A DNA stretch of 64,000 bases, taken from positions 123,938,001 to 124,002,000 of the forward strand of contig OX597814.1 in assembly GCA_951406725.2 (NCBI GenBank), given 5' to 3'. Of the stretch, positions 18,693 to 55,016 are shown one piece after another. Source of the DNA: Octopus vulgaris (Eukaryota). Numbering within the stretch: the first letter of the stretch is position 1; every line of letters starts with the position of its first letter. The position numbers and the translations under genes were made by a program. A model generated the notes under the pieces. The model was not told where the DNA came from and did no database searches. It was given only the letters and a program-made list of their open reading frames with translations.

Positions 18693-19467
18693 AATTAATG
18701 CTTGTTTTCCATGCTGGCGTAAGTTGGATGGTTTGATAGGAGTTGGCAAGCCGGAAGACTGCACCAAATCCTGGAGTCTGTTGATGGATGACCTTCCTCG
18801 TGTCGGGACTATTTACACAGTGCACTGAGTACTTTTCATATGACACTGGCACCAGTGAGGTCACCAGCCAAGAGGGCGAGTGGTATGGAGAGAGGTGGAT
18901 TTTGTGCCAAGTGATGGAGAGGACAGAAACAGGTGTTTTGCTGTTGGGGAGATACATGGGTATCCCAGTTGGAGAGAGAGGGAGAGAGAAAGAGAGATAG
19001 AGATAGAAAGAAAGAGAAAGAGAGAAAGATAGCTAGCTAGACAGATAGATAGAGAGAGAGAGAGGGAGAGAGAGAAAGAGAGAGGGAGAGAGGTAGAGAG
19101 AGAGAAAGAAAAAGAAAGAGAGAGAAAGAAAAAGAGAGAGAGAAAGAGAGAAAGATAGATAGAAAGAGAGAAAGCTAGACAGATAGATAGAGAGAGAGAG
19201 AGAAAGAGAGAAAGAAAGAGAAAGAGAGAGAGAAAGTGAGATAGAGATAGAAAGAAAGAGAGAGAAAGATAGCTAGCTAGACAGATAGATAGAGAGGAAG
19301 AGAGAGAGGAAGAGAGAGAAAGAGAGAGGGAGAGAGGTAGAGAGAGAGAAAGAAAAAGAGAGAGAGAAAGAGAGAAAGATAGATAGAAAGAGAGAAAGTG
19401 AGATAGATAGAGAGAGAAAGAGAGATAGAAAGAAAGAGAGACAGAAAGAGAAAGAGAGAGAAAGAGA

Positions 19468-19616
19468 AAAATACCTTAGGAATGAGAACCCAGGTTCAAA
19501 ATTTCCCCCAAGACACCTAATGAAGGCTGGAGGGTATATCAGCTGAAACGTGTTAACAACAAACAAGATGAGGACAAATACCCGTCGAATGTAAATAATG
19601 TAAATAATGTAAATAA
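19468..19616 (+). mobile_element. 3' half of the tRNA-head/hammerhead element (core mutated CTAATGA)
   Basis: ATACCTTAGGAATGAGAACCC..GACAC-CTAATGA-AGGCTG..CAGCT-GAAACG..AACAACAAACAAGATGAGGAC..(TGTAAATAA)n; same family as 37521-37770. Confidence 0.75.
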
Positions 19617-19892
19617 CTCTGATGTTGCACTTCCAACATTGTGTACTAACTTCATTCCTCCTGACTTTTCACATGTCCTCTGCATTAAGGGCCTGGGGTC
19701 TCACTATCATGGAGTATAACAGTTCATACACAAGCATCATACAATCTACATTTCAATCTGAGAAAGAGAGAGAGGCCTTTTGCTGTCATCAAAAGTAATA
19801 GCTCTCTGAATTTTCCCCATCATATTCTTATTCTAGTAACTATGTTTTCAGAACATCCTCCTCCACTGCTAATTTGGTCACCTAAATATACT

Positions 19893-36771: not shown

Positions 36772-37080
36772 TAGTTAATTAAAGTTGCTTCACTATTTAA
36801 TGCAGTGTTTTAGTAGAGCTAATCTTTTAGGTAGTAAAAACTTATACTGGTGATTGGTTTAATGCAACCATCTGATCTTTAGGTACTTTTAGTGGAGTTC
36901 ATAATGTTTGCAAGAACTTAGACCAAGTTTTGAGTTTGAGAATAATATTTTTTTCTCTTTCTCAAATGAGTCATAGATATCACCAAAAAAGAAGAAAAAA
37001 GAAGCAAAAATAAAAACACAAATAAAGGTTAGAATAAAGGTTACAATTCTATATTTCTTAGATGAGGAATTTATATAATG

Positions 37081-37503
37081 TATTCTGTTTATATTAGACT
37101 GATTTACTCTTTGTGATTGCTGATTTTACTACATTTCAGCTTTTGTACGTTCTAGCCTTCTTCAGGTGTCTTGTGTTGAATTCGATTGTTGTATCAGAGG
37201 ATAGTAGATAAAGATGTTAGTTAATGCAGTTCAGTCACCTAGAGGTTTTGAGTTCAATCCTATGCAACACACTAAGGTAATTCACACAAAATCAACTGAA
37301 GGAAAAAAAAATGTCATGAAATAGAGAGCATAATGAAAACAGTATACATCTGTGGATCAAATAAAGGTTTAGGTTTGAAATTCTGATAGGAAAGCTGAGT
37401 TCAACATTAGACACCTGAAGAAAGCTGGGGCATACAACAGTTGAAACGGAGTGAAAGCAACAACCAAGATGACGACACCAGCCTGACTAATATAAGCAGT
37501 ATA
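37081..37503. mobile_element. Old inverted pair of hammerhead-bearing Penelope-like fragments
   Basis: 37081-37183 (-) and 37397-37503 (+) share GACAC-CTGAAGA-A(G/A)GCT..(A)G(C/T)T-GAAA and the tail GACTAATATAA.CAG. Confidence 0.6.
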
Positions 37504-37520
37504 CATAAAGGGTCAATAGT

Positions 37521-37836
37521 ACATTATTTACATTATTTACATTTGATGGATATTTGTCCACATTTTGTTTGTTGTTAACACAACATTTCGGCTGATATAC
37601 CCTCCAGCCTTCATCAGGTGTCTTGGGGAAATTTTGAACTTGGGTTCTCATTCCTAAGGTATTTTTCGATGTTATTATTATTATTATTCAGGTCACCACC
37701 TGGAATTGAACTCGGAATCTTGGGGTTAGTAGCCTGAGCTCTTAACCACTACGCCATATGCCTGTGGGCATATGGCACAGTGGTTAAGAGTGTGGGCTAC
37801 TAACTCCAAGATTCTGAGTTCGATTCCAGGCAGTGA

Positions 37837-37896
<60 letters not shown>

Positions 37897-38107
37897 CAAC
37901 AACAACAATAACAATAATAATAAACACACGCACCAATGGTTATGAAGCTCAGGGCTAAAAGCGGAGGGTGACGGTTTCATATTAGCTGCTAAGACCAGCT
38001 AAGATGAAACTTGTTAACAACAAACAAGATGAGGACAAATATCCATCAATTGTAAATAATGTAAATAATGTACATAATTCCTCATCTCTTAAATATAGAA
38101 CTGTATT
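37521..38107. mobile_element. Head-to-head pair of tRNA-headed, hammerhead-containing short retroelements with a 12-bp TSD
   Basis: AGGGTCAATAGT at 37509-37520 and 38108-38119; symmetry centre near 37764; each arm has A box, B box, (TAA)n and the tail AACAACAAACAA.ATG.GGAC..(TGTAAATAA)n. Confidence 0.85.
37577..37622 (-). ncRNA. Minimal type I hammerhead ribozyme motif
   Basis: Minus strand GACAC-CTGATGA-A-GGCTG-gagggtatat-CAGCC-GAAA-TG-T-T-GTGTT: stem I GACAC/GTGTT, perfect 5-bp stem II, minimal stem III (ACGT in sister copies). Confidence 0.75.
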
Positions 38108-38423
38108 AGGGTCAATAGTCTCATCCTTTCTTCTGACTAAATGATTACAAAAAAAAAAAACCAAAATAAATACCTAACCCTCTCTCAAATCACATGTCAT
38201 GTGTCACAACTGTATAATCTTGTCATCTTTCAAATCATAAGCTTATCATTAGATAATACTCCTAACAGCTTTTTGTAGAATTTAGCAGATGAGAGACAGC
38301 CTTCTCCTGATGAACTGAACTCAACTAAACATGCTAATGAAATATTTGTTCACTCTTTTGATACTGGATGGCCTGAAACTATCCTTGATCTCTTGGTCAT
38401 GTGATATAAACTTCCTGTTTTAA

Positions 38424-53600: not shown

Positions 53601-54696
53601 AAGTGCCTGTAAGGTGATGCTGATAATGATCACATTCGAATGGTGCTTTTTATATACCACTGGCATGAACGCCAGTTAGCCGCTCTGGCAACGATCACGC
53701 TTGGATGGTGCTCTTAGTGCTCCACTAGCACGGATGCCAGTCATCGAATTTGATTTCGATTCCGATTTCAGGTAGGTAAACTGAGGCAAGCAAGACATGT
53801 GGTACCTGTGGTGTCAATGTAATAAATAGCAAAAAAACCTTTTGCACAAGTCATTGAGAAATCCTCTGTTTAGTCACTAGACTTGATATAAATAGCAGTC
53901 AAATCTCTTTCATATCACACCTTTAAGATGGAAAAGACACATTAGTAGTCCTCTAAGCTGGTAAAATAGATTGAATGGTTGTTATTGGAAAATCATAGAT
54001 CATTGGTCTGTGTGATCAAAGTAAATATTCCAATATGTCTAGACCCAACGTTTGAACTCTAGAATAAGAAATCAATAGACCAACCTCTTGACTTCATCTC
54101 CACTATGTCTCACATATGACAATAAATATGCTGTCTTATCTTGCATTTTATGACGACCACACATATATGGTCAAGAAATTAAATAATTCTCTTCACAATT
54201 TAGAAGTTGTGGGTTTGATCTCACCACATGGACTCTTGGATAAGAATAATTAACCACAGCCATGGCTTGATCTAAGATTTTGTGGGTGACACACAGTGGA
54301 AATCTATTGAATAAATTGTACCTAAAATTGAAAGGCCTATTCTAGTATTTGTCATACAGTGTTATACTGATTCTGTCTTAGGATGGGTGTTAGCATGCCG
54401 GGCAAAATGCTTAGAGGTATTTCGACTGCTGCTATGTTTTGAGTTCAAATTCCGCCGAGGTCGACTTTGCCTTTCATCCTTTCAGGGTCGATTAAATAAG
54501 TACCAGTTATGCACTGGGTTCGATATAATCAACTTGATCCGTTTGTCTGTCCTTGTTTGTCCTCTCTGTGTTTAGCCCCTTGTGGGTAGTAAAGAAATAG
54601 ATACATTTTGGGGCAGAAGTTTTGGTACTTTTGCATCACTGATTCAATGCTTACTTATTTGAAATTAGACATTTTAATACTGTTCTATATTTTACC

Positions 54697-55016
54697 TGCC
54701 CATAGGCATATAGTATAGTTAAGAGTGTGGGCTATTAACCCCAAGATTCTGAGTTCAATTCCAGGCAATGCCTTGAAGAAATGATGGTGGTGGTGGTGGT
54801 GGTGGTGGTGGTGGCGGCGGCGGCGGTGGTGGTGGTGGTGGTGGTGGTGGTGGTAATGAAGATTACCTTAGGAATGAGAACCTTTCAACAGCTGGCCTGG
54901 TGGAATTTTGAACTCAGTTCAAAATTCCACCAGGCCACCTGATGAAGACCGAAACGTTATGGTAACAACAAACAAGATGAGGACACATATCTGTCCAATG
55001 TAAATAATGTAAATAA
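54697..55016 (+). mobile_element. Third copy of the tRNA-head/hammerhead element (variant body)
   Basis: GCCCATAGGCATA..GTTAAGAGTGTGGGCTATTAACCCCAAGATTCTGAGTTCAATTCC head, (GGT)n, TACCTTAGGAATGAGAACC, CCAC-CTGATGA-AGACC-GAAACGTT-ATGG, family tail. Confidence 0.75.

What the first reader, a model, noticed from the sequence alone, without database searches (positions are those of the whole stretch)
37521..38107. tRNA-promoter-headed short retroelement carrying a hammerhead ribozyme (candidate cephalopod retrozyme or Penelope-mobilised SINE)
Seen: on the minus strand, 37770 to 37521 reads as a tRNA-like head (A box TGGCGTAGTGG, anticodon-like arm, B box GAGTTCAATTCC), then (TAA)n, then an intact hammerhead core (GACAC-CTGATGA-A-GGCTG..CAGCC-GAAA..GTGTT), then a (TGTAAATAA)n tail. 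A second copy sits head-to-head, and the pair is bounded by one 12-bp TSD (AGGGTCAATAGT), so it inserted as a single event. The same head-hammerhead-tail order recurs at 54697-55016, and the 3' half at 19468-19616. Established: Pol III promoter plus hammerhead units are known from Schistosoma Sm-alpha repeats, and inverted insertions with minimal hammerheads are typical of Penelope-like elements. Inference: this is a non-autonomous, Pol III-transcribed, self-processing element that uses Penelope RT/GIY-YIG machinery rather than a LINE partner. I do not know of a cephalopod description.
Basis: partly seen in the sequence, partly recalled or inferred. Interest (0 to 1): 0.85.

Follow-up and report, generated by a model that had tools for sequence, protein, structure and literature searches.

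The report
tRNA-headed autonomous Penelope-like retrotransposon
The short "tRNA head plus hammerhead" repeat is the terminal repeat of a full protein-coding Penelope-like jumping gene, and its tRNA-like head, placed between the gene's stop and start codons where most short copies begin, likely serves as its promoter, possibly for RNA polymerase III, which is normally thought to copy only short non-coding RNAs.

Summary
The head, hammerhead core and 12-bp target duplication are real, but the unit is not a SINE or retrozyme. It is the pseudo-LTR and ORF start of an autonomous Penelope-like element (PLE): a 2,654-nt monomer with an 835-aa RT + C-terminal GIY-YIG-like ORF. The head begins about 25 nt after the stop codon, the ATG lies at +125, and the hammerhead and "tail" are coding sequence. 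Short and ORF-linked copies share one majority sequence. The family has roughly 24,000 decayed hammerhead-bearing copies.

The unusual part is the tRNA-like head. 35 of 52 copies that reach it start within -11..+29. An older sister family keeps the A/B boxes, palindrome and upstream TATAA. The sense strand has no TTTT in 2,654 nt (P 0.002-0.025), though GGGG is absent too.

Likely mechanism: RNA starts at the head, probably by Pol III, and internal reverse-transcription start at the AC-rich tail yields the short copies. No RNA or cleavage data were obtained. The second window copy lacks a hammerhead. I found no tRNA-headed PLE in ten literature searches; Repbase and Dfam were not checked.

The parts
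37509..37520 (+). left target-site duplication (12 bp)
37521..37770 (-). solo pseudo-LTR copy (+1..+246) of the family-1 Penelope-like element, without the optional tail
   Evidence: head 76/82 and body 143/150 identical to the family majority; 40 best genome hits 89-100%
37759..37770 (.). 12-nt palindrome at +1..+12, shared junction of the head-to-head pair; marks the common 5' boundary
37746..37756 (-). A box-like motif (+15..+25)
37702..37713 (-). B box-like motif (+58..+69)
37672..37688 (-). (AAT)n microsatellite in the 5' UTR; frequent target of later insertions
37521..37651 (-). first ~43 codons of the 835-aa PLE ORF (ATG at 37651, +125 in the majority)
   Evidence: (tblastn 89% to residues 1-36)
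37577..37622 (-). type I minimal hammerhead inside the ORF: stem I 5 bp, stem II 6 bp with unpaired A, palindromic loop 3, predicted GUU cleavage triplet
37521..37576 (-). AC-rich segment and TGTAAATAA repeats; first of two 3' boundaries (+241..+260)
37759..37840 (+). head of the inverted partner copy
   Evidence: 69/75 to majority
37841..37923 (+). expanded (AAT/AAC)n of the partner
37924..38012 (+). 89-nt insert replacing the hammerhead; Dong/R4-like LINE ORF fragment
   Evidence: blastx 54-68% to four own-genome LINE ORFs, E 1e-7 to 8e-9; the Dong/R4 label is recalled
38013..38107 (+). AC-rich end plus PLE tail (to about +283) of the partner
   Evidence: 89/90 to majority
38108..38119 (+). 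right target-site duplication
37185..37508 (+). older sister-family (family 2) pseudo-LTR with its own A/B-box head and hammerhead (core 37415-37446); family 1 inserted at its 3' end
37041..37200 (-). inverted partner of the family-2 copy (hammerhead core 37134-37165, tail)
54697..55016 (+). another family-1 solo pseudo-LTR; stem II deleted, local inversion, A box damaged
19466..19619 (+). 5'-truncated family-1 copy (from about +106); hammerhead core mutated

Best explanation
The unit is the pseudo-LTR and first codons of an autonomous Penelope-like retrotransposon, and its tRNA-like head likely acts as an RNA polymerase III-type promoter from which the element's RNA would start.

Shown: the monomer order is palindrome, A/B-box head, (AAT)n, ATG, hammerhead, AC-rich segment, tail, RT, GIY-YIG-like domain, stop, TATAA, next head. 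Short copies begin mostly at the head and end at two sites about +250 and +279. Half have an inverted partner, and many have 7-14-bp target duplications.

Inferred: (1) In a partial tandem, upstream TATAA (-27) plus internal A and B boxes start transcription near +1..+8. (2) The T4-free sense strand lets Pol III read the 2.65-kb monomer. (3) The element's protein nicks both DNA strands and starts reverse transcription internally at the AC-rich/tail sites. Use of the 5' site gives a 250-280-nt solo pseudo-LTR running to the RNA 5' end; use of the 3' site gives 5'-truncated ORF-containing copies. Two cDNAs joined at their ends give head-to-head pairs inside one duplication. (4) The hammerhead would cleave weakly, as a dimer or with protein help, and is probably not what defines the short unit.

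Odds by step: pseudo-LTR of an autonomous PLE 0.95; RNA starts at the head 0.8; the polymerase is Pol III about 0.5.
For: ORF linkage on both sides: 27 of 30; 19 of 25; L241, L244, L245, L253 with head; L253 starts at +11 and runs into the ORF. One open 835-aa frame in the in-script majority. Pfam RVT_1 in 2 of 5 pieces. The C-terminal piece aligns 36% over 159 aa with P0070, which carries Pfam GIY-YIG. 1,459 homologues at E<=1e-30.

5' ends: 35 of the 52 copies reaching the head end in -11..+29; 0.0275 ends per nt against 0.0026 further upstream, P 2e-12; 23 of 36 when symmetric pairs are removed. 25 of 30 in the head-anchored set. Exact 21-mers fall from 3,681 in the head to 823 just upstream.

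Family 2 keeps palindrome, both boxes (10-nt insertion between) and TATAA at about -28, where it is not the stop codon; 17 of 25 copies start at -1..+27.

T4 runs: 0 in 2,654 nt; P 0.025 (synonymous permutation), 0.003-0.008 (other nulls), 0 of 16 at-risk sites against 182 of 567, P 0.002. Eight unrelated PLE ORFs have 41 against 40 expected.

3' ends: 50 of 98 at +241..+260 and 42 of 98 at +273..+279, matching the two RT start sites and tail of anole Poseidon (PMC11167929). TSDs 35 of 81 against 5 of 81 control. No diagnostic sites between short and ORF-linked copies.
Against: No RNA, ChIP or cleavage data. G4 runs are absent too (P 0.29 by permutation, 0.013 by the at-risk test), so the T4 result may be general run avoidance. 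A control PLE without a tRNA head (L320) has no T4 in a 1,236-nt frame (expected 1.8, P 0.13), though it has T5 in its pseudo-LTR. Two of 6 own-genome control frames also have none.

TATAA at -27 fits Pol II equally well, and any promoter at this place would give the same 5' clustering. The characterised D. virilis Penelope promoter is a LINE-like internal promoter with Inr/DPE (PMC2377424 passages). A 2.65-kb uncapped Pol III RNA would have to be translated from +125; Kojima 2024 argues autonomous partners must use Pol II.

The +1 palindrome can fold and could stall or snap back the RT. 46 of 98 copies end before the head. The family-2 sample was selected with a query starting near +21. Box sequences are not clearly better conserved than the rest among genomic copies (A 5.1%, B 2.7%, rest 4.3%), as expected for neutrally decaying copies. 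Pfam GIY-YIG does not hit this family's own sequence. No intact copy was found.
Confidence: 0.55

Rival explanations
1. Same autonomous PLE, but transcribed by Pol II from TATAA(-27) or an internal Pol II promoter. The tRNA-like head is a captured tRNA/SINE piece in the 5' UTR that is vestigial or acts as RNA structure or enhancer; Pol III may at most make short side transcripts.
For: TATAA at -27/-28 in both families. Known PLE promoters are Pol II-like. G4 runs are also absent. Translation is then unproblematic.
Against: Zero T4 on the sense strand against 32 A4 runs, with at-risk synonymous sites all avoiding T. Both boxes kept in family 2 while the spacer between head and hammerhead differs widely in length and sequence.
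Confidence: 0.3
2. The 5' clustering reflects RT stalling or snap-back at the palindrome or tRNA-like fold in a longer read-through RNA, not a transcription start.
For: Predicted hairpin across +1 (-14.2 kcal/mol for the 60-nt fold). Symmetric head-to-head pairs centred on the palindrome, as in the window.
Against: Clustering persists in copies without a symmetric partner (23 of 36). The mode (+1 to +11) lies within or 5' of the hairpin loop rather than at its 3' base. Full-length L253 also starts at +11.
Confidence: 0.1
3. One reading: a separate non-autonomous Pol III SINE or retrozyme, amplified from its own master copies and mobilised in trans by Penelope.
For: Short copies outnumber ORF-linked ones about 3 to 1 among those reaching the head. 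Solo copies carry both boxes and the RT start site, so occasional trans-mobilisation is possible. One family-2 locus (L276) is a 3-unit tandem.
Against: The unit is colinear with the autonomous element at both ends. There are no diagnostic substitutions and the same minor variants occur in both classes. Solo copies lose the upstream TATAA and have no terminator of their own.
Confidence: 0.05

Closest known systems
Penelope/Poseidon-clade PLEs (anole Poseidon_Ac; PMC11167929 parts 1-2 of 4 read; PMC8557442 passages)
   Same: Single ORF with RT then C-terminal GIY-YIG-type domain, pseudo-LTR with minimal hammerhead overlapping the ORF start, optional 30-40-bp tail at one end, two 3' boundaries in an AC-rich region, inverted 5'-truncated partner, partial tandems.
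   Different: A tRNA-like A/B-box head fills the space between stop and start codons; the sense strand has no T4; no such head is mentioned in the text I read. Clade placement rests on domain order and motifs, not on a tree with named references.
TRIMp3: Cassandra, Helenus, Ajax (Kojima 2024, PMC10886601 passages)
   Same: Small-RNA-derived Pol III promoter sequence inside the terminal repeat of a retroelement; Helenus uses tRNA.
   Different: Those are non-autonomous LTR elements of at most about 1.3 kb with PBS/PPT; this one is an autonomous, protein-coding 2.65-kb PLE.
Schistosoma Sm-alpha / Sj-alpha (via review PMC6765202 passages)
   Same: Pol III promoter followed by a type I hammerhead in a short repeat.
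   Different: Sm-alpha is non-coding and often tandem with a canonical hammerhead; here the unit is part of a coding element and occurs singly or head-to-head.
Animal non-LTR retrozymes (bioRxiv 10.64898/2026.07.22.740005, parts 1-2 of 5 read)
   Same: Type I hammerhead related to PLE pseudo-LTRs.
   Different: Defined as tandem non-coding repeats with a hammerhead in each unit; that text has 0 occurrences of tRNA or octopus; family 1 does not form such arrays in the loci seen.
Octopus tRNA SINEs OK, OR1, OR2 (Ohshima and Okada 1994, not seen; cited as CORE-SINEs in PMC4824008 and PMC4758252 passages)
   Same: tRNA-derived head in a (presumed) octopus genome; an Arg-like head is recalled for OR1/OR2.
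   Different: No sequence comparison was possible. Those are described as CORE-domain SINEs, whereas the body here is PLE coding sequence.

Membership tests
EN+ Penelope-like element (Penelope/Poseidon type) | single ORF with RT followed by C-terminal GIY-YIG endonuclease | tested here: met
   835-aa majority ORF; RVT_1; C-terminus 36% over 159 aa to GIY-YIG-bearing P0070; direct Pfam GIY-YIG hit absent
EN+ Penelope-like element (Penelope/Poseidon type) | pseudo-LTR at both ends through partial tandems | tested here: met
   (L241, L245 start in the previous ORF end)
EN+ Penelope-like element (Penelope/Poseidon type) | minimal type I hammerhead in the pseudo-LTR with palindromic loop 3 | tested here: met
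   core intact in 94 of 133 copies (partly selected on the core); descriptor from PMC4209133
EN+ Penelope-like element (Penelope/Poseidon type) | inverted 5'-truncated partner, optional tail, variable TSD | tested here: met
   53 of 98 inverted; bimodal 3' ends; TSD 35 of 81 vs 5 of 81
EN+ Penelope-like element (Penelope/Poseidon type) | RT phylogeny within Penelope/Poseidon | not tested
   no labelled reference RTs held; no PDB match
tRNA-derived SINE | tRNA-like head with A and B boxes at the 5' end | tested here: met
   not detected by ARAGORN or Rfam
tRNA-derived SINE | non-autonomous lineage distinct from its autonomous partner | tested here: not met
tRNA-derived SINE | transcription by RNA polymerase III | not testable with these tools
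   only indirect signs; only contigs of runs guessed to be RNA were available
Non-LTR retrozyme | head-to-tail non-coding repeats, hammerhead in each unit | tested here: not met
   neighbouring family-1 copies are mostly inverted and the unit is coding; one 3-unit tandem in family 2 (L276)
Non-LTR retrozyme | self-cleavage and circular RNA | not testable with these tools
   no assay or raw RNA reads

The most novel reading that the evidence does not exclude
An autonomous, protein-coding retrotransposon lineage that replaced its Pol II promoter with a tRNA-derived Pol III promoter, purged oligo-T terminators from its 2.65-kb sense strand, and was translated from a Pol III transcript. Its solo pseudo-LTRs would then be ready-made SINE-like units, a route by which Sm-alpha-like and tRNA-bearing Penelope parasites could arise.
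Probability: 0.45. Interest if true: 0.85.

Novelty: new variant of a known kind. Interest (0 to 1): 0.62.

Why it matters
Small-RNA-derived Pol III promoters are documented for non-autonomous elements (SINEs, Cassandra/Helenus/Ajax, Sm-alpha), and autonomous partners are assumed to need Pol II (PMC10886601 passage). An autonomous PLE with a tRNA-like head at its start site would be a natural test of whether Pol III can produce a translated 2.65-kb retrotransposon mRNA. It would also offer a direct origin for promoter-plus-hammerhead repeats. Even if Pol II transcribes it, roughly 24,000 short copies that look like tRNA SINEs are PLE fragments, which matters for repeat annotation. The copies also give genomic support for internal RT initiation, so far shown in vitro for one element.

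Tried and rejected
Rfam (window; five loci) and ARAGORN: no hit on head or hammerhead.

Sequencing runs: no RNA holder listed; 20 rows hold part of the stretch, under four organism codes. Four runs were laid, all as contigs, and say nothing on starts or expression.

PLE relatives with DNA: none in viral contigs; 8 distant loci in metagenomes and 1 in genome contigs. None of the 5 checked has a B-box-like motif in its pseudo-LTR region, but L312-L315 hold only 150-260 nt past the ORF. DNA of the close relatives (P0001-P0009, 53-68%) could not be obtained, so the range of the tRNA head is unknown.

No intact young copy among the matches; longest stop-free frame examined 569 aa. No PDB relative.

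tRNA donor unresolved: only 10 genes of 7 amino-acid types compared; best Arg-TCT 49/77, Arg-TCG 47/75, Cys 46/75. No independent SINE sharing this head was seen: the 8 of 30 head-anchored loci without body run into the microsatellite and then unrelated DNA, or are fragments.

A full family-2 ORF could not be assembled; its 591-nt partial majority has no T4, which is weak and not independent. The alignment table was empty through a strand error; only its printed flanks were used. Searches ended in script errors and were completed. My notebook says 18 of 25 for family-2 starts; the correct count is 17 of 25. Lunse 2017 is not held.

Full report
OBSERVATION. The minus-strand unit 37770-37521 is as described: A box (37746-37756), B box (37702-37713), (AAT)n, a type I minimal hammerhead (37577-37622) and TGTAAATAA repeats. 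The 12-bp duplication at 37509 and 38108 bounds the pair. Three points differ from the finding. The plus-strand partner has lost the hammerhead to an 89-nt LINE ORF fragment. The 54697 copy lacks stem II. The 19466 copy has a core mutation. Rfam and ARAGORN detect neither head nor hammerhead. The head is 61-64% identical to the best three of 10 own tRNA genes (z 6.1-7.2 against shuffles).

IT IS A LARGE FAMILY. An exact 22-mer in the hammerhead occurs 7,387 times, control 0. 30 of 98 hammerhead copies in loci found by other queries carry it, giving roughly 24,000 copies. Copies are 5.6-6.8% from the majority, and no intact long copy was found, so the family looks inactive.

IT IS THE PSEUDO-LTR OF AN AUTONOMOUS PLE. 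In 2 of the 30 best-hit loci the head was preceded by coding sequence. Searching with that sequence, the head follows the stop codon in 27 of 30 loci. Long copies encode an RT (Pfam RVT_1) and a C-terminal domain 36% identical over 159 aa to a GIY-YIG-bearing homologue; Pfam GIY-YIG does not hit the family directly. Anchoring on the ORF N-terminus, the tail runs straight into it in 19 of 25 loci, and L241, L244, L245 and L253 show head, microsatellite, ATG, hammerhead, tail and ORF in one piece. The in-script majority (depth mostly 20-54) is a 2,654-nt monomer with an open 835-aa frame from +125. The hammerhead and the 'tail' are therefore coding sequence, as in anole Poseidon (PMC11167929, parts 1-2 of 4).

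INSERTION GEOMETRY IS THAT OF PLEs. I examined 98 copies from the first 100 listed places (first 30 Mb of C1), chosen only on the hammerhead. 53 have an inverted partner. 3' ends fall at +241..+260 (50), +273..+279 (42) or elsewhere (6). Duplications of 7-14 bp flank 35 of 81 scorable blocks against 5 of 81 controls. These match the inverted partner and optional tail described in PMC8557442 (passages) and the two internal RT start sites of PMC11167929.

NO SEPARATE SINE LINEAGE. 91 short and 46 ORF-linked copies have the same majority base at every position scored, and the minor variants at +71 and +163 occur at like frequency in both. Differences with P<0.01 were small and are explained by the short set being selected for closeness to the window copy or the majority. 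Head and body co-occur in 22 of 30 head-anchored loci; the other 8 run into unrelated DNA after the microsatellite or are fragments.

THE HEAD MARKS THE 5' BOUNDARY. Of the 98 copies, 46 end before the head, 4 at +37..+63, 35 at -11..+29 and 13 continue past -20. The rate of ending is 0.0275 per nt at the head start against 0.0026 further upstream (P 2e-12), and the cluster remains without symmetric pairs (23 of 36). The head-anchored set gives 25 of 30. Exact 21-mer counts drop from 3,681 to 823 across about 55 nt. The boundary lies 4-14 nt before the A box, where a type 2 Pol III promoter starts (recalled), and TATAA lies at -27. An older sister family, also linked to a PLE ORF end, keeps the palindrome, both boxes and TATAA at about -28, and 17 of 25 copies start at -1..+27 (that sample was selected with a query starting near +21).

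WHICH POLYMERASE. For Pol III: no run of four T in 2,654 nt of sense strand against 32 runs of four A; P 0.025 under synonymous permutation and 0.003-0.008 under two other nulls; 0 of 16 at-risk synonymous sites use T against 182 of 567, P 0.002; eight unrelated PLE ORFs have 41 runs against 40 expected. T4 as the animal Pol III terminator is recalled. Against: G4 is absent as well (P 0.29 and 0.013); a headless control PLE has no T4 in 1,236 nt (P 0.13); 2 of 6 own-genome control frames have none; TATAA suits Pol II; D. virilis Penelope has a LINE-like internal promoter (PMC2377424 passages); and an uncapped 2.65-kb RNA must be translated. I put Pol III at about even odds.

MECHANISM. Shown: anatomy, boundaries, linkage. 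Inferred: a partial tandem joins TATAA from the previous ORF end to the A/B boxes and starts RNA near +1..+8. The encoded protein nicks both strands and primes internally at the AC-rich/tail sites. The 5' site yields solo pseudo-LTRs such as the window copies, and the 3' site yields ORF-containing truncated copies. Two cDNAs joined end to end, here through the shared palindrome, give one insertion with one duplication. Solo copies lose TATAA, which would explain why they founded no lineage of their own. The hammerhead fits the minimal dimer-type motif of PMC4209133 (part 1 of 4; predicted folds); its GUU site and the anole data suggest weak, protein-assisted cleavage not needed for insertion.

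COMPARISON AND NOVELTY. It meets the tested PLE features and fails the defining tests for SINE (independent lineage) and retrozyme (tandem non-coding units). The nearest parallels for the head are the non-autonomous TRIMp3 elements (PMC10886601 passages) and Sm-alpha (review PMC6765202 passages). Ten searches (listings, with passages read as stated) showed no PLE with a tRNA-derived head. The 2026 retrozyme preprint (parts 1-2 of 5 plus term search) has no mention of tRNA or octopus; its supplements are closed. The 2026 Octopus vulgaris repeat paper (parts 1-2 of 3 and a supplement term search) reports 190 Penelope-like families covering 6.83%, with no hammerhead in its supplement; its Zenodo library was not seen and may hold this family. 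A giant squid paper counts 235 hammerheads without context (passage). PMC8967140, PMC4824008 and PMC4758252 were seen as passages only. Repbase, Dfam and Ohshima and Okada 1994 were not seen. Three unchecked earlier notes of this scan describe non-coding tRNA-bearing units with Penelope-type insertions in other animals; they are leads only and suggest that the pairing of tRNA modules with PLEs recurs.

VERDICT. Real feature; first reading partly right. A new variant of the Penelope/Poseidon type: an autonomous element with a tRNA-like head at its start site. Interest 0.62; 0.85 if Pol III transcription of the coding element is shown (probability about 0.45).

Noticed in passing
window 37041-37508; L261-L285, L306-L311: Older sister PLE family (copies 75-82% alike) with the same palindrome, A/B boxes, TATAA and a GUA-type minimal hammerhead; the family-1 pair inserted at its 3' end.
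   Followed up: partly
L276:800-1800: Three head-to-tail family-2 units, each with hammerhead, tail and about 74 nt more ORF: a small retrozyme-like tandem.
   Followed up: partly
L045, L048, L052, L054, L123; window 37924-38012: LINE-like sequence (Dong/R4 label recalled) repeatedly inserted into the (AAT)n of the pseudo-LTR, separating head from hammerhead.
   Followed up: partly
L268, L269, L273 (family 2, just upstream of the palindrome): A 7-nt motif complementary to the 3' acceptor-like arm of the family-1 head lies before the palindrome, suggesting the palindrome arose by a short insertion behind the original tRNA 5' arm.
   Followed up: no
P0003 N-terminus: A 55%-identical relative has an N-terminal peptide like the hammerhead-encoded one here, so the hammerhead-in-ORF overlap may be old in this lineage.
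   Followed up: no
P0006 cluster: Relatives at about 53% identity are named from a barnacle, closer than most other hits; horizontal transfer among marine animals is possible but untested.
   Followed up: no
L320 (CBDBEI010000004.1): An animal-type PLE with TATA and hammerhead sits in a contig of a bacterial MAG; probably host contamination.
   Followed up: partly
L073/L074 (G000:C1:740612-740870): Head-to-head pair joined in the microsatellite, which has turned into (AAG)n.
   Followed up: no
L211: Cluster of seven tRNA genes or pseudogenes, mostly Cys, within 3 kb.
   Followed up: no
window 54400-54600: A different, very common repeat with a B-box-like motif (octopus SINE by recall) lies just upstream of the 54697 copy.
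   Followed up: no
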